DNA from: Clostridia bacterium
Lineage (GTDB): Bacteria > Bacillota > Clostridia > UMGS1883 > UMGS1540
Assembly (NCBI GenBank): GCA_045533905.1
Contig: JAZSIR010000002.1
Span: 14,622 to 78,621 of the forward strand
DNA length: 64,000 nt
Reading direction: 5' to 3'
The position numbers were made by a program, and so were the translations under genes. Positions 18,441 to 26,372 of this stretch are shown piece by piece (positions within the stretch are counted from its first letter, which is position 1; every line of letters starts with the position of its first letter). The notes below the pieces were generated by a model. That model did no database searches. It was not told where the DNA came from and worked only from the letters and a program-made list of their open reading frames with translations.

Positions 18441-19164
18441 GGCTACATATGATGCCATCCGCGCCGCCCAAAGCGGCGATGCAGCGGCGCTCGAGGCACT
18501 TACGAAAGAAAATACGCCGTTAATTCACAGTATCGTCCGCCGCTTTTACGGCCGCGGCACAGATGAGGAGGACCTTTTTCAAATCGGTGCCATCGGATTT
18601 ATAAAGGCTGTGCGCGCATTTGACACGGCGCGTGGGCTTGCCCTCTCCACCTATGCAGTACCTATGATTATGGGCGAAGTGCGGCGGCATCTTCGCGACA
18701 ATACGATGATAAAGGTCAGCCGCAGCACGAAAGAGCTTGCCGGACGTGCCGCCGCAGCCGCCGGTACGCTTCTGGAAAAAACGGGCAGGGAAGCGAGTCT
18801 CTCGGCTATTGCCGCAGAGCTTGCCGCTCCCGAAGAAGATGTGGCCGCAGCACTTTCCGCCGTGCAGACGCCCGATTCTCTCGAGCGCCCCATCTGCGAC
18901 GGAGACGGTCTTTTGATGGACATTCTGGGCAGCGATGAGGATGTGGCGGAGAAAGCCACAAACCGTGCAGCACTCCTCGCCCTTCTAAATAGCGGGGACC
19001 CTACCGAAAAGGAAGTTCTCCTCTGCCGCTTTTTCAAGGACAGGACACAAAGCGAAACGGCCGCCGCTTTAGGCATTTCACAGGTGCAGGTTTCTCGTAT
19101 GGAGAAACGTGCCCTCAAACGGCTGCGCGCTCTTCTGGGCACAGATACACGAGAAAAAGATTGA
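18433..19164 (+). CDS. sigF: RNA polymerase sporulation sigma factor F
   Basis: DLFQIGAIG, STYAVPMIMGEVRR, TQSE..GISQVQVSRME; third gene of the spoIIA operon. Confidence 0.92.
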   Translation: MDKATYDAIRAAQSGDAAALEALTKENTPLIHSIVRRFYGRGTDEEDLFQIGAIGFIKAVRAFDTARGLALSTYAVPMIMGEVRRHLRDNTMIKVSRSTKELAGRAAAAAGTLLEKTGREASLSAIAAELAAPEEDVAAALSAVQTPDSLERPICDGDGLLMDILGSDEDVAEKATNRAALLALLNSGDPTEKEVLLCRFFKDRTQSETAAALGISQVQVSRMEKRALKRLRALLGTDTREKD

Positions 19165-19189
19165 CAAAAAAACTCTTTTATGCTATCCT
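19161..19189 (+). promoter_or_regulatory. Sigma-A promoter of rnpB
   Basis: TTGACA-N17-TATCCT with TG extension, overlapping the sigF stop. Confidence 0.7.
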
Positions 19190-19195
19190 TAATTT

Positions 19196-19530
19196 GTGAG
19201 TAGGTCGGGCAATCGCGGCAGGGCGCACGCCCTGGTGAGGAAAGTCCGAGCACCAAAGGGCAAGGGTGCCAGATAACGTCTGGTGGAGGCGACTCTAAGG
19301 ATAGTGTAACAGAAAACAACCGCCGATTTTTCGGTAAGGATGGAAAGGCGAGGTAAGAGCTCACCGGCGGTATGGAGACATACCGGCCGTATAAACCCCA
19401 CCCGGTGCAACACCGACAGAAGAGATAAGCCGGCCCGGCACTTCTTCGACCGGTGGCTAAAGCCGTATAGCAATATGCGGCGTAGATAGATGATTGTCTG
19501 AGACAGAACTCGGCTTACAGACTTACTCAC
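19196..19530 (+). ncRNA. rnpB: RNase P RNA (type A)
   Basis: GAGGAAAGTCC, AGTGTAACAGAAA, GTAAGAGC, AAACCCC, AGATAGATGATT, ACAGAACTCGGCTTA; P1 gtgagtaggtc/gacttactcac. Confidence 0.97.
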
Positions 19531-19545
19531 CGTTTTGACCCTTTT

Positions 19546-19569
19546 CCCCGCAGAGCCTGCGGGGTTTTT
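19546..19569 (+). terminator. Terminator after rnpB
   Basis: ccccgcag/ctgcgggg plus T tract. Confidence 0.85.
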
Positions 19570-19679: not shown

Positions 19680-19708
19680 TTGACTTTTTCTTTTGTGGCA
19701 ATTATAAT
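19680..19708 (+). promoter_or_regulatory. Sigma-A promoter of the dat-pxp-alr operon
   Basis: TTGACT-N17-TATAAT. Confidence 0.75.
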
Positions 19709-19768
19709 GAGAAAAAACGGCTGAATCGGTAGATTTTGCCATAAAAACCTGTAAGGAGATATGTTATT

Positions 19769-20611
19769 ATGAAGAATCTTGGCTACTACAACGGCAAATT
19801 CGGTGAAATCGAAGAAATGTCCGTTCCGATGAACGACAGAGTCTGCTACTTTGGCGACGGTGTATATGATGCAACCTACAGCCGCAACTACAAAATCTTT
19901 GCGCTGGATGAGCACATTGACCGTCTTTACAATAGCGCCGCCCTTCTCAAAATTGAAATCGCACAGACCAAGGAAGAAATGAAGGCCATCTTAAACGAAA
20001 TGGTCGCTAAGATGGACACCGGCGAAAACTTTGTATACTGGCAGGTAACCCGCGGCACCGGCAAGCGTAACCACGTATTCCCGACCGACGGCTCCAAGGC
20101 AAACCTCTGGATTGCCATTTCCCCGAAGGATATCGTAGACGTATACAAGAAAATTAAGCTTATCACAATGGAAGACACACGTTTCCTCCATTGCAATATT
20201 AAGACCTTAAACCTCATCCCGTCGGTTATGGCTTCCCAGAAGGCGAAAGAAGCCGGCTGCGACGAAACGGTTCTCCACCGCGGTGAAAGAGTTACGGAAT
20301 GTGCGCACAGCAATGTACATATCATTCGTGACGGTATGTTCGTAACTCCGCCGACAGATCACCTCATCCTCCCCGGCATTGCCCGCGCACACCTTATCAA
20401 GGCTTGCAAAAAGCTCGGCATTGCAGTAGATGAAACACCGTTTACAATGGATGATCTTATGCATGCAGACGAAGTTATCGTTTCTTCTTCCGGTTCTCTC
20501 TGCCTCGCTGCTGAAATCGTGGACGGCAAGCCCGTTGGCGGCCGTGCTCCGGAAATTCTGAAGGCAATTCAGGACGAAGTTCTCCGTGAATTCATGGAAG
20601 CTACAAACTAA
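19769..20611 (+). CDS. dat: D-amino-acid aminotransferase (class IV PLP)
   Basis: DR..YFGDGVYD, QVTRG..RNH, NIKTLNL (PLP lysine), TECAHSN, ILPGI. Confidence 0.85.
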   Translation: MKNLGYYNGKFGEIEEMSVPMNDRVCYFGDGVYDATYSRNYKIFALDEHIDRLYNSAALLKIEIAQTKEEMKAILNEMVAKMDTGENFVYWQVTRGTGKRNHVFPTDGSKANLWIAISPKDIVDVYKKIKLITMEDTRFLHCNIKTLNLIPSVMASQKAKEAGCDETVLHRGERVTECAHSNVHIIRDGMFVTPPTDHLILPGIARAHLIKACKKLGIAVDETPFTMDDLMHADEVIVSSSGSLCLAAEIVDGKPVGGRAPEILKAIQDEVLREFMEATN

Positions 20612-20623
20612 GGAGAAACGAAT

Positions 20624-21688
20624 ATGACACAAAAGGATATTACCATCTTAAACCTCGGTCAGAGCCTTGATGACCTTGCAAACCTCGACCCGAGAGGCTA
20701 CGGCGTTTGCAAAATCCTCTACAAGGCATCGAGAGAGCTTGCGGGCGAGCCGACCTGTATGCACGCTGCTAAAAAGCTCGTTTCGACCGTAAAAGAAGGC
20801 GACTTTGTTTATGTTATGACAGGCTTTGTTCTCCGCCCCTATAAAAAGGCGGAAATGGACGGCATTGTAAGCTCGATGCTCCTTTGCCGCGCACTTGTAA
20901 AAGCCTTTGGTGCAAAGCCGGTTATCATTTGCCCCGAGGATAACTATGAAGCTGTGAAGAACCTCGCCGCATGTGTAGGTCTTCACCTCTTTGAAGACCT
21001 TGAGGACCTTCGGAATATTCCCGTTTTGATGGGCGTAGTATGTTTTACAAAGGATGCAGATAAGGCCGCGGCCGAGGCCGATGAAATCATCGCCAAGATG
21101 CCGCCCAAGGCTGTAGTAAGCATTGAATGCCCGGGCGCAAACGCCAAGGGTGTATACCATAACGCAATTGGTCTCGATGTAACACCGCTGGAAGCGAAGC
21201 AGGATGTTCTATTTGAAAAAATTCAGAAGATGGGCGTTTTGAACATTGCCATCGGTGACCTTGGCAACGAAATCGGCATGGGTGCGATTCGTGACGCGCT
21301 CTGTGCGCACATCCCCTATGCAAGAGAAGGCGCTTGCAGTTGCGGCTGCGAAGGCGGCCTTGCCGTTACAACCGCGGCTGATAACCTCATCACCGCCACC
21401 GTTTCCGACTGGGGCTGCTATGCTATGATTGCGGCTATGGCATTCCTTCTCGAAAACGTAGATGTTATGCATACCGAGGAGCTTGAAAAGGCCGCCATTA
21501 TCTGCGCCAGCCGAAGCGGCATGATTGACATGTATGGTTGGCTCATTCCCGCAGTGGACGGATTCGGTCTTGAGATTAATCTCCCCATCGTATCCCTTAT
21601 GCGCGAAATGGTAAAGAGCGCTCTTTCCCTTCGCGAAACCTGCAAAACTTGGTTTGAAAAGGTAGAGGAATTACATTTCTTCGGCTAA
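20624..21688 (+). CDS. DUF4392 / D-glutamate cyclase-like domain protein
   Basis: TGF, EMDG, IECPG.N..G.YH, IAIGDLGNEIGMG, VSDWGCY motifs. Confidence 0.75.
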   Translation: MTQKDITILNLGQSLDDLANLDPRGYGVCKILYKASRELAGEPTCMHAAKKLVSTVKEGDFVYVMTGFVLRPYKKAEMDGIVSSMLLCRALVKAFGAKPVIICPEDNYEAVKNLAACVGLHLFEDLEDLRNIPVLMGVVCFTKDADKAAAEADEIIAKMPPKAVVSIECPGANAKGVYHNAIGLDVTPLEAKQDVLFEKIQKMGVLNIAIGDLGNEIGMGAIRDALCAHIPYAREGACSCGCEGGLAVTTAADNLITATVSDWGCYAMIAAMAFLLENVDVMHTEELEKAAIICASRSGMIDMYGWLIPAVDGFGLEINLPIVSLMREMVKSALSLRETCKTWFEKVEELHFFG

Positions 21689-21712
21689 GCCGGGAAAGGC
21701 TTTGGTACTTTT

Positions 21713-22426
21713 ATGGAAAAGGTAAAATTTCTCCCCTCGGGTGACAGCGCCGTTACGGTTTTGTTCTCTACGGAAATAAACGAAGAGACCAACCGCAAAA
21801 TTCGGTATTTAGCTGCACAGATTGAGAAAAAAGGGATTCGCGGCATCCGCGAAAGCGTGCCCACCTTTTGCAGTATTACGATTTATTTTGATCCGTTTGT
21901 CATCTCGGAGAAAAAAGTAGAAAGAAAAATCCAAAAGATTATAAAAGCTTATAAGGAAGGCTCCGCCGGCACTCGGCGGGTCTTCCTTATTCCCGTTTGT
22001 TACGACGGGGAGCATGCGCCGGATATGGACGATGTATGCACGCTTTGCGGCCTTACAAAGGAAGAGGTAATCGCCATTCACTCCGGCACCGATTATCTTA
22101 TCTACATGCTCGGCTTTTTGCCGGGTTTCCCGTATCTTGGCGGTATGGACCCGCGCATTGAAGCGCCGCGTCTTGACACGCCGCGCACCACGATTTTCGA
22201 AGGTGCCGTGGGCATCGGCGGCAAGCAAACGGGGATTTACCCTCTCGCTTCCCCCGGCGGTTGGCGGCTTATCGGGCGCACACCCTTTAAGGTTTACGAC
22301 CCTGAAAGAGAAACGCCGATTCTGTATAAAGCCGGCGACTATATCCGTTTTTATCCCATCACAGAAGCAGAATTTGATGCGATGCGGCAAAACGGATGCG
22401 AAATTGAAATCAGGGAGGAACGATAA
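21713..22426 (+). CDS. pxpB: 5-oxoprolinase subunit B (KipI-like)
   Basis: SGDSA, IPVCY, GFLPGFPYLG, GGKQTGIYP..SPGGWRLIGRT. Confidence 0.93.
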   Translation: MEKVKFLPSGDSAVTVLFSTEINEETNRKIRYLAAQIEKKGIRGIRESVPTFCSITIYFDPFVISEKKVERKIQKIIKAYKEGSAGTRRVFLIPVCYDGEHAPDMDDVCTLCGLTKEEVIAIHSGTDYLIYMLGFLPGFPYLGGMDPRIEAPRLDTPRTTIFEGAVGIGGKQTGIYPLASPGGWRLIGRTPFKVYDPERETPILYKAGDYIRFYPITEAEFDAMRQNGCEIEIREER

Positions 22427-23373
22427 TGTACGCGATGACAATTCTCTCCCCCGGCCCCCTTTCCACGGTGCAGGATGAAGGCCGCTTCGGCTATATGAGC
22501 ACCGGTTTTTCGCCCGGTGGTGCCATGGATACAAAGGCCGCAAAAACCGCCAATATCCTCGTGGGCAATGCTCCTATGGATGGCGTAATTGAAATGACAG
22601 TTATGGGGCTTTCCGCACAGTTTTCGTGCGATACCCTTGTAGCGATTACCGGTGCCGATATGGTACCCGAACTAAACGGCGAGGCCGTACCGATGTATCG
22701 GGCCATCCCCGTGCATGCAGGCGATACGCTCACGATGAAGCTTGCAAAAAGCGGTATGCGTGCCTATCTCGCTGTAGCCGGCGGCTTTGACCTTCCCACG
22801 AGTATGGGCAGTATGTCCACCAATTTAAAATGCGCGCTTGGCGGCATGGAGGGCAGAAAGCTCCAAAGAGGTGACGTGTTACCGCTTCGCCGCACCATCC
22901 CCTCTTTCCCGAAGGATGTGCGCGCAACTTCTCCCGAAACCTATTCGAAGGCGCTCACAGTTCGCGTGATTTTAGGACCGCAGGATGACTTTTTCACAAA
23001 AAAAGGACTCGAGACTTTCCTATCGTGTGCGTATGTGGTCACCGACAAGTCCGACCGTATGGGCGTGCGACTTGACGGGGAAAAGATTGAGAACAAAAAC
23101 GGCGTAGATATTATTTCCGACGGCATCGCGACGGGGTCCATCCAAATCCCTGCCTCCGGCACGCCGATTATTATGATGGCCGACAGGCAAACGACAGGCG
23201 GCTATGCAAAAATCGCCACGGTAATTTCTGCGGACCTTCCCAAAATTGCGCAGGCCGCGCCCGGCACGGAAATCCGCTTTACGGCTATCTCGCAAAAAGA
23301 TGCCGTTCGCATTCTCCGAAAAGAAGAACTGAAATTAAAAGCACTCGAATACCGTTTGCTTTTTAAAGATTAA
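22426..23373 (+). CDS. pxpC: 5-oxoprolinase subunit C (KipA-like)
   Basis: TVQDEGR.G, GAMD, G.RAYLAV.GG, SDRMG.RL, GSIQIP, DRQTTGGY.KI. Confidence 0.93.
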   Translation: MYAMTILSPGPLSTVQDEGRFGYMSTGFSPGGAMDTKAAKTANILVGNAPMDGVIEMTVMGLSAQFSCDTLVAITGADMVPELNGEAVPMYRAIPVHAGDTLTMKLAKSGMRAYLAVAGGFDLPTSMGSMSTNLKCALGGMEGRKLQRGDVLPLRRTIPSFPKDVRATSPETYSKALTVRVILGPQDDFFTKKGLETFLSCAYVVTDKSDRMGVRLDGEKIENKNGVDIISDGIATGSIQIPASGTPIIMMADRQTTGGYAKIATVISADLPKIAQAAPGTEIRFTAISQKDAVRILRKEELKLKALEYRLLFKD

Positions 23374-23378
23374 ACGAG

Positions 23379-24173
23379 GTGAAAAGAATGGATTATGCAA
23401 AAATGTTACCTTCCGAAGTGCGAAAGCTTATTCGTGAAGAAAAAATCACCGGGCAAACCTCGGGTATGTGCGAAACGTATGCCCAGGGCAACCTCTTGAT
23501 TTTACCCCGCGCCGAGGCGTATGATTTTCTCCTTTTTACACAGAGAAACCCGAAGTCCTGCCCCATTTTGGAGGTTGGCGATGTGGGTAGCCGCCTTGTA
23601 AAGAAAATGGCGGATAACGGGGATATTGCAACCGATATTCCGAAATATCGCGTTTGGGAAAACGGCGTTTTGACCGGTGAATACACAAACGTTTCGCATT
23701 TATGGAGAGATGATTTTGTATACTTCCTCATTGGCTGCTCCTTCTCCTTTGAAGGCGAGCTTCTCGCCTCGAACGTGCCTGTACGCCACATCGAAGAAGG
23801 TAAAAATGTGCCGATGTACCTTACGAACATTCCTTGCGAAGAAGCCGGTATGTTTCACGGCAATCTCGTTGTGAGTATGCGTCCTATGCCCGCTTCCGAT
23901 GTTATCCGTGCCGTCAGCATCACTTCTTCCATGCCGCGCGTGCACGGCGCACCAATTCACATCGGTGATCCCGAAAAAATCGGTATTCGCGACATTATGA
24001 AGCCGGACTTTGGCGACAGCGTAACGATTCATGAAGGTGAAATCCCCGTATTCTGGTGCTGTGGTGTTACGCCGCAGTCGGTTGTAATGAGTGCAAAGCC
24101 GCCCATTGCGATTTCCCATGCACCGGGTCATATGTTTATTACCGATGTCAAAAATTCTTTGTTAAAGGACTGA
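23379..24173 (+). CDS. DUF1445/YcsI putative hydro-lyase
   Basis: [55 protein letters not shown]. Confidence 0.9.
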
Positions 24174-24181
24174 TTTTTCGA

Positions 24182-24964
24182 ATGTTTGCAATAGATCTCA
24201 ACAGCGACCTTGGCGAAAGCTTCGGCGCCTATAAAATCGGCCGGGATACGGATGTGATTCCGCTCGTTTCCTCGGCAAACGTAGCTTGCGGTTTTCACGC
24301 GGGTGACCCCACCATTATGGCAGAAACGGCAAAGCTTTGTGCTAGTGCCGGCATCGGCATCGGTGCACATCCCGGTTATAATGACCTTGTAGGCTTCGGC
24401 AGAAGAAATATGAGCGTTTCCCCGAAGGATGTAAAAAACCTTATTATCTATCAGGTGGGAGCCCTCGATGCTTTCTGCAAGGCAAATGGCATTTCGCTTT
24501 GCCACGTAAAGCCGCACGGCGCGCTTTACAATATGGCCGCAAAAGACGTTTCTCTCGCGGAAGCTATTTGCGAAGGTATTTATGCCTACAACCCCTCTCT
24601 CATTTTGATGGGTCTTTCCGGAAGCTGTATGATTTCCGCCGCCAAAAAGCTTGGTCTCCCCTATGCCGCCGAGGTATTTGCCGACCGCGCATATGAAGAT
24701 GACGGCACACTCGTAGCAAGAACAAAGCCGGGCGCTATGATTTCGGATGAGGATGAAGCCGTCTCCCGTGTTATCGGTATGATTAAAAATCATAGCGTGA
24801 CTTCGATAAACGGCAACGAAATCGAAATTTGCCCCGATTCCGTTTGTGTGCATGGCGACAGCGAAAAGGCGCTTCTCTTTGTAAAGAAAATTCGTGCCGC
24901 GCTGGAAAAGGAAAGCATTGCGATAAAGCCGGTTTCCGAAATCGTCGCAGAAAGGGCGAACTAG
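24182..24964 (+). CDS. pxpA: 5-oxoprolinase subunit A (LamB/YcsF)
   Basis: [51 protein letters not shown]. Confidence 0.95.
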
Positions 24965-24965
24965 T

Positions 24966-26126
24966 ATGGATTCTACACACGTATATGAAAAATACAGCCG
25001 CACGTTTGCGCGCATTGACCTGGATGCAATTTCGCACAATCTGTCCCAGCTCAAAAGCTGCATTGCACCGGGTGTTCGCGCTATGGCCGTTGTAAAGGCC
25101 GACGGCTACGGGCACGGCAGCGTGCGCGTGGCACGGCACATTGAAGAAGATGTGGATTACTTCGCGGTGGCAGAGCTTAGCGAAGCCATTATTCTTCGCG
25201 AAGGCGGCATACAGAAACCGATTTTAATTCTCTCGTATACGAGTCCCCTCCAGTATGATACGCTTCTTTCCTATGACATTACGGCCTCGATTTATAACTA
25301 CGAAGAAGCCGTGGCACTGTCGGAAGCCGCCGAAAAGATGGGAAAACGCGCCTGTGTACATGCAGTTGTAGATACAGGTATGGGGCGTATCGGCGTAAAA
25401 CCCTCCGCGGAAGGTGCCGATATCATAAAGAACATTTCTCTTCTGCCCGGGCTTTATGTGGAAGGGCTTTTCAGCCACTACGCCTGTGCGGATTGCGAGA
25501 ATAAGTGCGATGCGCTTTCACAAACGGCTCTTTTTGACGCGTTTATCGCGCTTTTATCCGAACGCTCGGTTGAAATCCCGATAAAGCACATCTGCAATAG
25601 TGCCGGTACCATGGATTTTACAAAGCAGTATGATATGTGCCGCCTCGGCATTGCGCTCTACGGGCTTTATCCGTCGGATGAGATGGATACGGAGAAAATC
25701 GAGCTCCATCCTGCGATGGAGGTTGTCAGCCATGTTGTACATACCAAAACGGTACCGAAAGGCTTCCAGATCGGGTACGGGCATATTTATACAGCACCCG
25801 AAGAGCGCCGCGTGGCCACCGTTTGCATCGGCTATGCGGACGGGTTCAACCGCTGCCTCACAGGCGCCGGATATGTGCTTATTCACGGTAAAAAGGCCCC
25901 GATTGTCGGCAAAGTTTGTATGGACCAGATTATGGTCGATATCACCGACATTCCGGACATTTTAGTAGGTGATCACGCCGTTATCCTCGGCAAAAACGAT
26001 GGCGCCGTTCTCTCGGCTGAAGACTTTGGCGCGATGTGCCACAGCTTTAACTACGAAGTGGTTTGCACCTTTATGCCGCGCGTTGAACGGCTTTACTACA
26101 AGGGAGAAACGCTTCTCTCAGAGTAA
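24966..26126 (+). CDS. alr: Alanine racemase family protein
   Basis: AVVKADGYGHG (PLP lysine), DTGMGRIG, NSAG, IGYG, GYADG, VCMDQ, NYE. Confidence 0.93.
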   Translation: MDSTHVYEKYSRTFARIDLDAISHNLSQLKSCIAPGVRAMAVVKADGYGHGSVRVARHIEEDVDYFAVAELSEAIILREGGIQKPILILSYTSPLQYDTLLSYDITASIYNYEEAVALSEAAEKMGKRACVHAVVDTGMGRIGVKPSAEGADIIKNISLLPGLYVEGLFSHYACADCENKCDALSQTALFDAFIALLSERSVEIPIKHICNSAGTMDFTKQYDMCRLGIALYGLYPSDEMDTEKIELHPAMEVVSHVVHTKTVPKGFQIGYGHIYTAPEERRVATVCIGYADGFNRCLTGAGYVLIHGKKAPIVGKVCMDQIMVDITDIPDILVGDHAVILGKNDGAVLSAEDFGAMCHSFNYEVVCTFMPRVERLYYKGETLLSE

Positions 26127-26143
26127 TTCAAAACACAACAAGG

Positions 26144-26342
26144 CAGACATCGAAAAACGAAGGTATATTTTACGAAATCGGTACGATGGTACAGTAGAGA
26201 ACGATTTCGTAAAAAGCAAGAAATGACGGAGATTCTCGATGAATCGCCGTCATTAAAATTTATAATTCTTTGCGGGGGAAGAGGAATACGCAAAGTGTTT
26301 ATGAGAGTATTCTTGCGGTAGAGCAAGTTTTTCGACAGTCTG
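26144..26342. repeat. Dispersed ~200-bp structured repeat, copy 2
   Basis: Homologous to 15384-15591; ends cagacatcgaaaaac...gtttttcgacagtctg. Confidence 0.85.
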
Positions 26343-26372
26343 AAGGCAGAAACGAATCGTTTCTGCCTTTTT
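26343..26372. terminator. Terminator between alr and pdaA
   Basis: aaggcagaaacga/tcgtttctgcctt plus T tract. Confidence 0.85.

What the first reader, a model, noticed from the sequence alone, without database searches (positions are those of the whole stretch)
19680..26126. Self-contained D-amino-acid / 5-oxoproline operon: dat, DUF4392, pxpB, pxpC, DUF1445, pxpA, alr
Seen: seven tightly packed co-oriented genes (gaps of 24 bp or less) under one near-consensus promoter. Dat keeps the D-specific Tyr and RxH carboxylate-trap residues, and Alr keeps its catalytic Lys and Tyr. Established: PxpABC hydrolyses 5-oxo-L-proline to L-Glu using ATP; YcsI/DUF1445 accompanies pxp genes in B. subtilis with unknown function; mammalian D-glutamate cyclase carries DUF1445 and DUF4392 in one protein; Alr plus Dat interconvert L-Ala, D-Ala and D-Glu. 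Inference: an unreported route for glutamate stereo-inversion via the lactam (D-Glu to 5-oxo-D-Pro by DUF4392, epimerisation possibly by the Cys-containing DUF1445 protein, ATP-driven opening to L-Glu). Alternatively it may supply D-Glu without MurI or detoxify D-amino acids.
Basis: partly seen in the sequence, partly recalled or inferred. Interest (0 to 1): 0.78.

Follow-up and report, generated by a model that had tools for sequence, protein, structure and literature searches.

The report
D-glutamate supply and salvage operon
A gut-type Clostridia bacterium that lacks the usual enzyme for making cell-wall D-glutamate carries one operon whose two outer genes likely make it instead and whose five inner genes are predicted to turn surplus D-glutamate back into L-glutamate through its ring form, pyroglutamate, an untested route that would give two uncharacterised protein families, both also found in a human enzyme, a job.

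Summary
The seven genes, tight gaps, promoter and catalytic residues are real, and the order is conserved across Clostridia. It is two separable modules, not one unit. (1) dat + alr: this 95.5%-complete genome has MurD and Ddl but no detectable MurI, MurL or DapF, and two relatives keep dat-alr with the five inner genes deleted. So Dat/Alr likely supply wall D-Glu, a known route. (2) DUF4392-pxpB-pxpC-DUF1445-pxpA also occurs without dat/alr and beside MurI, so it is not the D-Glu source. DUF4392 keeps all six TON_0340 metal ligands. DUF1445 occurs with pxpB in 13 of 13 sampled genomes (background 29 of 299), fuses to both unrelated oxoprolinase types, keeps two cysteines at helix starts, and resembles the NrpR 2-oxoglutarate-sensing domain. 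Best reading (0.5): D-Glu to 5-oxo-D-Pro (DUF4392), racemisation (DUF1445), ATP opening to L-Glu (PxpABC). Against it: the animal fusion keeps both cysteines yet is reported to make 5-oxo-D-Pro. No chemistry is tested. My library searches did not find the operon in print; this scan noted it before on other DNA.

The parts
19546..19564 (+). Terminator-like hairpin closing the upstream RNase P RNA gene (rnpB 19197-19533); left boundary of the operon
   Evidence: terminator-like sites overall are not above shuffles (16 vs 14.4)
19680..19708 (+). Near-consensus sigma-70/sigma-A type promoter TTGACT-17-TATAAT
   Evidence: 11 of 12 match; pattern upstream of dat in 7 of 8 regions examined
19769..20611 (+). 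dat: D-amino-acid-transaminase-like class IV PLP enzyme, 280 aa; likely the cell's D-Glu source
   Evidence: PF01063; best PDB hits are D-amino acid aminotransferases, E 2.8e-52; below TIGR01121 cut-off
20624..21688 (+). DUF4392 / GLUCM-like C-terminal protein, 354 aa; predicted dimetal D-Glu cyclase
   Evidence: PF14336 289 bits; E77 D79 E168 D212 E216 D312 invariant; fold of TON_0340, TM 0.87-0.90 by target
21713..22426 (+). pxpB, 5-oxoprolinase subunit B, 237 aa
   Evidence: TIGR00370 216 bits, cut-off 145.55
22426..23373 (+). pxpC, 5-oxoprolinase subunit C, 315 aa
   Evidence: PF02626; TIGR00724 over cut-off, NF045499 under cut-off
23379..24173 (+). DUF1445 / YcsI / UPF0317 protein, 264 aa; predicted two-cysteine (C120, C228) 5-oxoproline racemase
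   Evidence: PF07286, NF003969 over cut-off; Cys conservation; model and fold search
24182..24964 (+). pxpA, 5-oxoprolinase subunit A, 260 aa
   Evidence: PF03746; NF003814 and NF003816 over cut-off
24966..26126 (+). alr, alanine racemase, 386 aa; the only alr found in this genome
   Evidence: TIGR00492 360.6 bits, cut-off 168; single copy
26342..26370 (+). 13-pair terminator-like hairpin between alr and the convergent pdaA-like gene; right boundary
   Evidence: pdaA-like gene

Best explanation
The operon joins two separable modules: Alr and Dat likely make the D-alanine and D-glutamate for the wall of a cell with no detectable glutamate racemase, and the five inner genes are predicted to return surplus D-glutamate to L-glutamate through 5-oxoproline at the cost of one ATP. 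Predicted steps: the dimetal DUF4392 protein closes D-Glu to 5-oxo-D-proline; DUF1445 inverts C2 with the pair C120/C228; PxpABC opens 5-oxo-L-proline with ATP. The ATP step makes the route one-way, D to L. With Alr and Dat in front, the net inferred reaction is L- or D-Ala + 2-oxoglutarate + ATP to pyruvate + L-Glu, so the full operon would act as an overflow valve for D-Glu and as a way to capture nitrogen from alanine, other D-amino acids and 5-oxo-D-proline. Shown: genes, residues, conservation, separability, co-occurrence and fusions. Inferred: every reaction of DUF4392 and DUF1445, the L-specificity of this PxpABC, and flux direction. I put module 1 at about 0.85 and the three-step chemistry of module 2 at about 0.5.
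For: Module 1: G000 (95.5% complete) has MurD and Ddl, no PF01177/MurI, no MurL, no DapF and one alr. 0 of 9 genus genomes have PF01177 and 9 of 9 have dat, while murI is found in 266 of 300 class genomes. G005 and G007 have dat-alr adjacent without the core, and their dats nest among full-operon dats (96/83 support). Module 2: core complete in 45 of 49 judgeable loci, 15 of them without a co-oriented dat. MurI is present in 11-13 of 19 genomes with a core-only locus. In the class sample pxpB is in 29 of 299, DUF1445 in 13 (all 13 with pxpB), DUF4392 in 9 (7 with DUF1445, all 9 with a pxpB match). DUF1445 is fused to PxpC, to a whole HyuA/HyuB-type oxoprolinase and to DUF4392 (54) among 100 long hits. 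A second lineage has a HyuA/B-type oxoprolinase upstream of DUF4392 in 19 of 23 loci and DUF1445 fused or next in 12 of 23. C120 and C228 are both kept in 114 of 126 diverse relatives that cover both sites; each ends a strand and precedes a helix in the model. The nearest fold outside the family is the NrpR-like domain 3NEK (Z 9.9, rmsd 4.3, 168 aligned). The six metal ligands are invariant. Clostridium-type loci keep murI and 2-3 alr copies and some lie beside Lrp/AsnC, LIV-type ABC or Na/alanine symporter genes.
Against: Bird and amphioxus GLUCM keep both cysteine motifs. Yet the mouse protein was reported to make 5-oxo-D-proline, judged against D and L standards, and humans excrete far more D than L form (PMC5339696); a fast racemase domain should blur that. 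I recall Katane et al. 2018 calling the mouse enzyme stereospecific in both directions (not retrieved). The only assayed stand-alone DUF4392 protein showed weak Mn-dependent phosphatase activity (PMC5132392). Pfam gives the name 'D-Glu_cyclase' to DUF1445, not DUF4392. The symmetry of the two Cys motifs is weak in sequence (hhalign probability 4-5%, E about 0.008 on unguided halves) and their distance could not be measured. 2 of 9 DUF4392 genomes lack DUF1445 and most DUF4392 genes in the class sample stand apart from pxp. The sampled genomes cluster in five families, so counts overstate independence. The dat-link versus murI contrast is p 0.042 at 130 bits but p 0.24 at the curated cut-off, in genomes of unstated completeness. 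Dat plus Alr could already remove D-Glu reversibly.
Confidence: 0.5

Rival explanations
1. DUF4392 and DUF1445 are two halves of one D-glutamate cyclase, as in animals. 5-oxo-D-proline is a dead-end product that is exported to dump excess D-Glu, and PxpABC separately repairs spontaneously formed 5-oxo-L-proline.
For: 54 of 100 long DUF1445 hits are fused to DUF4392; 7 of 9 DUF4392 genomes carry DUF1445 (126); the animal fusion gives 5-oxo-D-proline, which is excreted (PMC5339696).
Against: 6 of 13 DUF1445 genomes have no DUF4392 but all have pxpB. Control genomes B. subtilis and C. glutamicum ring for DUF1445 while none of 14 rings for DUF4392. PMC5132392 reports DUF1445 in fungi without DUF4392 and DUF4392 in archaea without DUF1445. 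Fusion order differs (39 DUF4392-first, 10 DUF1445-first). A dead end does not explain fusion to two unrelated oxoprolinases.
Confidence: 0.18
2. The core is an entry route for 5-oxoproline of both hands. PxpABC or DUF4392 running backwards opens 5-oxo-D-proline to D-Glu, and Dat and Alr then carry its nitrogen to D- and L-alanine, leaving 2-oxoglutarate.
For: Explains why dat and alr flank the core (30 and 24 of 45 complete-core loci). The mouse assay included opening of the lactam (supplement passages). Transporter and regulator genes lie beside some loci. G249 and G322 have DUF4392 and a pxpB match without DUF1445.
Against: Ring opening without ATP runs uphill (established: 5-oxoprolinases need ATP). 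15 of 45 complete cores have no co-oriented dat. It leaves DUF1445 and its two cysteines without a role. The window has no transporter in the operon.
Confidence: 0.15
3. The core makes D-glutamate from the L series through the lactam and so replaces MurI.
For: All 7 DUF4392-bearing genomes of the family (own plus 6) lack PF01177. DUF4392 is fused to a MurD-like N+M unit in another lineage and lies beside murL-murD in G022.
Against: G005 and G007 lack both MurI and the core and keep dat-alr. The core sits with MurI in 11-13 of 19 core-only cases and in 7 of 9 class DUF4392 genomes. An L-specific ATP oxoprolinase pulls the opposite way. The fused MurD part lacks the C-terminal domain (match ends near profile position 299 of 441).
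Confidence: 0.07
4. DUF1445 and DUF4392 act on a different small compound near 5-oxoproline (a hydroxylated lactam, the cyclic form of 2-oxoglutaramate, or a phosphorylated metabolite), or DUF1445 is a ligand sensor rather than an enzyme.
For: NCBI names DUF1445 'putative hydro-lyase'; its nearest outside fold is a regulator domain; TON_0340 hydrolyses phosphate esters weakly; one paper calls PxpI a 'putative proline cyclase' (PMC11434012).
Against: The only assayed protein with both domains acts on D-Glu (PMC5339696). Links to dat, alr, MurD-like and MurL genes point to D-Glu (27, 44, 101).
Confidence: 0.1

Closest known systems
Animal D-glutamate cyclase DGLUCY/GLUCM/C14orf159 (PMC5339696)
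   Same: Both domains are present (PF07286, PF14336), with the two Cys motifs and acidic metal motifs also seen in bird and amphioxus copies.
   Different: Here they are two genes separated by pxpBC; the DUF4392 protein is a longer type with an invariant CxCxC insert; it is coupled to PxpABC, Dat and Alr. Which domain catalyses cyclisation is not settled by the paper.
B. subtilis pxpA(ycsF)-ycsG-ycsI(pxpI)-pxpB(kipI)-pxpC(kipA) operon and C. difficile kipOTIA (passages of PMC10448178 and bioRxiv 10.1101/2024.05.01.592088)
   Same: PxpA, B and C; a YcsI/DUF1445 gene as in B. subtilis (control ring).
   Different: Adds DUF4392, dat and alr; has no NRAMP-type transporter. C. difficile lacks pxpI.
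Dat + Alr route to wall D-Glu (named as the alternative to MurI in PMC8788868 and PMC5885031, passages)
   Same: Dat-like enzyme and Alr in a genome with MurD and no MurI, MurL or DapF detected.
   Different: Dat is below the TIGR01121 cut-off and differs at two pocket positions; the two genes bracket a five-gene salvage module.
TON_0340, Thermococcus onnurineus DUF4392 protein (PDB 4FC5, 5GL2; PMC5132392)
   Same: Same fold and all six metal ligands.
   Different: About 24% identity, 85 residues longer; TON_0340 was assigned as a probable phosphatase with unknown true substrate.
Cofactor-free two-cysteine racemases (MurI, DapF, proline and hydantoin racemases) and the hydantoinase process (recalled)
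   Same: Two conserved cysteines at strand-helix junctions; racemisation of a ring compound coupled to stereospecific ATP-driven opening.
   Different: DUF1445's fold matched only its own family and an NrpR-like domain (75, 81, 129); no racemase activity is on record in what I could search.
MurD2/MurL ATP-driven epimerisation (PMC8788868, passages)
   Same: ATP makes a glutamate stereo-inversion one-way.
   Different: MurL acts L to D on a UDP-peptide; the route proposed here acts D to L on the free amino acid through a lactam.

Membership tests
PxpABC 5-oxoprolinase | All three subunits, PxpA, PxpB and PxpC, encoded | tested here: met
   PF03746/NF003814, TIGR00370 and PF02626/TIGR00724 over cut-off; narrower NF045499 and NF003813 cut-offs not reached
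PxpABC 5-oxoprolinase | ATP-dependent opening of 5-oxo-L-proline, L-specific | not testable with these tools
   needs assay
D-amino acid transaminase (TIGR01121 equivalog) | Score above curated cut-off | tested here: not met
   235.5 vs 277.45 bits; so called Dat-like, not filed in the equivalog
D-amino acid transaminase (TIGR01121 equivalog) | Tyr31, Arg98-x-His100 carboxylate trap, Lys145, Glu177 (roles recalled) | tested here: met
   Y33, R100, H102, K145, E177, kept in all 63-64 related copies covering them; K35 is Y37 and H86 is F88
D-amino acid transaminase (TIGR01121 equivalog) | D-Ala + 2-oxoglutarate to D-Glu + pyruvate | not testable with these tools
   indirect only: replaces MurI across 9 of 9 genus genomes
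Alanine racemase (TIGR00492) | Score above cut-off; catalytic Lys and Tyr | tested here: met
   360.6 vs 168 bits; K44 and Y271 in 40 of 40
D-glutamate cyclase (DGLUCY) | DUF1445 and DUF4392 domains both present | tested here: met
D-glutamate cyclase (DGLUCY) | Both domains in one chain | tested here: not met
   separate genes 1.7 kb apart; fused forms exist in other bacteria
D-glutamate cyclase (DGLUCY) | D-Glu to 5-oxo-D-proline activity | not testable with these tools
   needs chiral assay
DUF4392 / TON_0340 dimetal enzymes | Six acidic metal ligands and fold | tested here: met
   E77 D79 E168 D212 E216 D312 in 80-81 of 80-81 copies; Foldseek E 3e-19
Two-cysteine cofactor-free racemases | Two conserved Cys, each at the start of a helix | tested here: met
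   C120 134 of 144, C228 121 of 126; positions in model
Two-cysteine cofactor-free racemases | The two Cys face each other across one pocket in a pseudo-symmetric site | tested here: inconclusive
   no coordinates available; halves align Cys on Cys but weakly
Two-cysteine cofactor-free racemases | MurI/hydantoin-racemase or DapF/proline-racemase fold | tested here: inconclusive
   not among listed matches; an unlisted family is not excluded
NrpR NRD domain (PF01995) | Shared fold and sequence motifs | tested here: inconclusive
   3NEK Z 9.9, rmsd 4.3, 168 aligned; Foldseek E 3e-5; no sequence-profile match; no NRD sequences obtained for comparison

The most novel reading that the evidence does not exclude
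DUF1445/YcsI is a 5-oxoproline racemase of a new structural kind, a two-cysteine catalyst built on the fold of the NrpR 2-oxoglutarate sensor. With the DUF4392 cyclase and either class of ATP-dependent oxoprolinase it forms a one-way D-Glu to L-Glu inversion pathway that has been assembled more than once in bacteria. Human C14orf159 would then be a cyclase-racemase with an overlooked second activity.
Probability: 0.4. Interest if true: 0.8.

Novelty: new variant of a known kind. Interest (0 to 1): 0.6.

Why it matters
DUF1445/YcsI has sat in the B. subtilis pxp operon without a function, and it is not known which half of animal D-glutamate cyclase does what. This operon offers the two halves as separate soluble bacterial proteins, beside their likely partner enzymes and with natural deletion variants, so both questions become direct assays with named residues (C120, C228; six acids). 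If the route holds, gut anaerobes can recycle D-Glu and D-pyroglutamate to L-Glu without a racemase or an oxidase, and a new racemase fold is added. The Dat/Alr substitution for MurI is known in kind, but here covers a whole clostridial genus sample (9 of 9).

Tried and rejected
Longer-protein search with the DUF4392 protein found nothing (weak evidence), so the Thermovirga racemase-DUF4392 link in PMC5339696 was not checked. No known racemase fold was listed for DUF1445; this does not exclude one. The DUF1445 profile did not reach 3NEK by sequence; the ESM Atlas gave no usable hit; PF01995 was found over cut-off in 0 of 150 class and 0 of 371 phylum genomes, so the NrpR likeness rests on structure only. 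No RNA holder was listed, which says nothing on expression. No complex prediction of DUF4392 with DUF1445 was obtained, so binding is open. Niehaus et al. 2017 was not held and one id was a wrong paper. HyuB-type oxoprolinase was not found in 5 of 5 genomes with stand-alone DUF1445; they have pxpB instead. murI was searched in 50 of the 80 locus genomes. Rejected: core as the MurI replacement (lost in G005, G007); MurL or DapF as this genome's D-Glu source (46, 52, 118; the MurL control rang in no named genome but the model found relatives in 4 of 5 handles); recent foreign insertion (GC 0.48-0.53 like the window). Literature: ten library searches (listings, capped at the rows shown) found no description of this operon or of a 5-oxoproline racemase. 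Subscription papers and bioRxiv supplements were not visible. I recall, from no call, that the curated B. subtilis 168 annotation labels pxpI 'putative D-5-oxoproline epimerase', so the epimerase idea may already exist as an untested label.

Full report
OBSERVATION. The seven ORFs exist at the stated place, all on the + strand, with gaps of 12, 24, -1, 5, 8 and 1 nt. Pfam and NCBIfam give: class IV aminotransferase, GLUCM-like_C (DUF4392), PxpB, PxpC, D-Glu_cyclase (DUF1445), PxpA and alanine racemase. The block is bounded by the RNase P RNA gene and a hairpin upstream and by a 13-pair hairpin and a convergent pdaA-like gene downstream. The promoter TTGACT-17-TATAAT is the best site in 10 kb. 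The same pattern is upstream of dat in 7 of 8 regions examined, against 0.006 expected per 200 nt. GC content matches the window. The neighbours (spoIIA-sigF) and the titles of related records place the host in Clostridia.

CONSERVATION. A scan of species genomes gave 129 relatives of the DUF4392 protein, of which the best 80 loci were kept. Within the DNA held, pxpB was seen in 74, pxpC in 72, DUF1445 in 69, pxpA in 64, dat in 57 and alr in 37 of 80. I set aside 31 loci with under 1.5 kb on a side. Of the other 49, 45 have the whole five-gene core, 30 of these with a co-oriented dat and 24 with dat and alr; 19 have the exact order of the window and 5 a shuffled order. The association is real.

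MODULE 1, DAT AND ALR. This genome (1.57 Mb, 95.5% complete) has MurD and Ddl but no PF01177 racemase, no MurL and no DapF. These are the D-Glu routes named in passages of PMC8788868 and PMC5885031. The operon's alr is its only one. In the genus, 0 of 9 genomes have PF01177 and 9 of 9 have dat; in a class sample of genomes at least 90% complete, 266 of 300 have murI. Of five relatives lacking both murI and this dat, four have MurL-like genes. Decisive for anatomy: G005 (96% complete) has dat and alr 15 nt apart, followed by the same genes as in the window, with the core gone; G007 also has dat-alr adjacent. Neither has DUF4392, DUF1445, pxpB or murI by family search. Their dats group with full-operon dats at 96/83 support in a 52-row tree, so the core was most likely deleted. 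Dat and Alr therefore likely supply wall D-Glu and D-Ala, and the core is not needed for that. Dat keeps the Tyr and RxH trap but misses the TIGR01121 cut-off, so I call it Dat-like.

MODULE 2, THE CORE. It also occurs without module 1: 15 of 45 complete cores lack a co-oriented dat. I searched murI in 50 of the 80 locus genomes: present in 7 of 21 with dat and alr, 4 of 9 with dat only, 13 of 19 core-only and 0 of 1 other at 130 bits or more. The dat-linked versus core-only contrast is p 0.042 at that threshold and p 0.24 at the curated cut-off, where core-only is 11 of 19; completeness of these genomes was not given. In the class sample the genes nest: pxpB in 29 of 299, DUF1445 in 13, all 13 with pxpB, and DUF4392 in 9, all with a pxpB match (one broken) and 7 with DUF1445. 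Seven of the 13 DUF1445 genes lie beside pxp genes and six do not; of 10 DUF4392 loci, 2 lie with pxp genes. This nesting is what a pathway extended backwards from the oxoprolinase would give, but the positives fall in five families and are not independent.

FUSIONS. Among 100 long DUF1445 proteins, 54 carry DUF4392 (39 in front, 10 behind, 5 with a MurD-like unit between), 10 carry a whole HyuA/HyuB-type oxoprolinase, 2 its B part, 3 PxpC, 1 a MurD-like part alone, and 30 none of these. The DUF4392-MurD-like form was followed into metagenomes (30 loci). Of 23 loci of 5 kb or more, 19 have a single-chain HyuA/B-type gene just upstream and 12 have DUF1445 fused or next. So the trio of DUF4392, DUF1445 and an ATP lactamase recurs with an unrelated lactamase, in what looks like one further lineage.

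THE TWO PROTEINS. DUF4392 models with pLDDT 94.5 and matches TON_0340. The six ligands named in PMC5132392 map to E77, D79, E168, D212, E216 and D312, all invariant. DUF1445 models with pLDDT 89.6; C120 and C228 each follow a strand and precede a helix. They are kept in 95 of 95 and 96 of 97 fusion proteins, and together in 114 of 126 diverse representatives. Unguided comparison of the two halves puts Cys on Cys, but weakly (probability 4-5%); a narrow, chosen window gave 54%. Outside its family the only clear structural match is the NrpR-like domain 3NEK (Z 9.9, rmsd 4.3, 168 aligned). NrpR is 2-oxoglutarate responsive (PMC6315671 passage); that the ligand binds in this domain's cleft is recalled. 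A pocket for a five-carbon acid lined by two cysteines is the layout of a two-base racemase (mechanism as described for DapF in PMC5885031). This is inference.

MECHANISM. A cyclase alone makes no sense next to an ATP oxoprolinase of the same hand (a futile cycle) or of the other hand (a dead end). A racemase between them does, and it also explains DUF1445 with pxp but no DUF4392 (6 of 13; also the B. subtilis and C. glutamicum controls). I therefore propose D-Glu to 5-oxo-D-Pro (DUF4392), to 5-oxo-L-Pro (DUF1445), to L-Glu (PxpABC, ATP). In support, three Clostridium-type genomes keep murI and 2-3 alr copies while two murI-less ones have one, and Lrp/AsnC (5 loci), LIV-type ABC (3) and Na/alanine symporter (2) genes flank some of the 80 loci. 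Most loci have unrelated neighbours, and this genome has GDH, so the route is not its only source of L-Glu.

AGAINST. The animal fusion keeps both Cys motifs yet was reported to make 5-oxo-D-proline and showed no glutamate racemase activity, and humans excrete mainly the D lactam (PMC5339696). I could not see the chromatogram. A recalled 2018 paper calls the enzyme stereospecific. TON_0340 was assigned as a weak phosphatase. No assay, expression or binding data were obtained. Hence 0.5 for the chemistry, 0.18 for a two-part cyclase with a dead-end product, 0.15 for an entry route of D lactam through Dat/Alr, 0.07 for D-Glu synthesis by the core, 0.10 for another substrate.

WHAT I READ. PMC5339696: parts 1-2 of 4, passages and supplement passages. 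PMC5132392: parts 1-2 of 4 and passages. PMC12547972 (lists GLUCM with 6 split gut-microbe homologues), PMC10448178, PMC11434012, PMC8788868, PMC5885031, PMC6315671 and the C. difficile preprint: passages only. PMC13274462: term search with no hit. Niehaus 2017 and Katane 2018: nothing, recalled.

NOVELTY. Each part is known or has a known relative. PMC5132392 already suggested that the two domains do sequential steps. Ten library searches did not find the operon or a 5-oxoproline racemase described. This scan has reported the operon or its parts on other DNA (4 look-alike windows; 12 notes by words, 8 shown); those notes are not independent support. Verdict: new variant of a known kind; interest 0.6; 0.8 if the racemase is real (probability 0.4).

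Noticed in passing
P0044, P0052, P0054, P0056, P0058; loci L153-L180: DUF4392 fused to a MurD-like unit that has the N and middle domains but not the C-terminal one, followed by or fused to DUF1445 and usually preceded by a single-chain oxoprolinase. The truncated MurD could sense UDP-MurNAc-L-Ala and gate the cyclase (speculation).
   Followed up: partly
L027 (G022), L129-L131 (G027, G038, G055), G031: murL-like genes (NF041275, 230-250 bits, under its 700 cut-off) next to murD in Clostridia lacking MurI and this dat. The review PMC8788868 lists MurL only for some Proteobacteria and actinobacteria. In G022 a DUF4392 gene follows murL-murD.
   Followed up: partly
window 20624-21688, residues 238-242: The long DUF4392 type has an insert with C238, C240 and C242 invariant in 81 of 81 copies, absent from TON_0340: a possible second metal site.
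   Followed up: no
P0049, P0057 and 13 more: DUF1445 fused to an O6-methylguanine methyltransferase DNA-binding domain (PF01035), one named from the protist Cafeteria; unexplained.
   Followed up: no
window 19769-20611: This Dat subfamily has D-A-T-[YS] in place of E-V-V-K after the conserved Tyr and an invariant H180 (64 of 64), which may shift substrate range.
   Followed up: no
L126 7351-9675 (G013): In a murI-less relative dat has left the core and sits directly before a glutamine synthetase gene.
   Followed up: no
L141 4328-11996 (G249): A long-type DUF4392 gene lies between an AtuA-family gene and a TAXI/DctM transporter in a genome without DUF1445.
   Followed up: no
window 19161-19533: RNase P RNA (class A) directly after the spoIIAA-spoIIAB-sigF genes, with its own extended -10 promoter-like site. 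Ordinary.
   Followed up: no
L074 9905-11070: DUF4392 split into two overlapping ORFs with no pxp genes nearby, probably a decaying copy.
   Followed up: no
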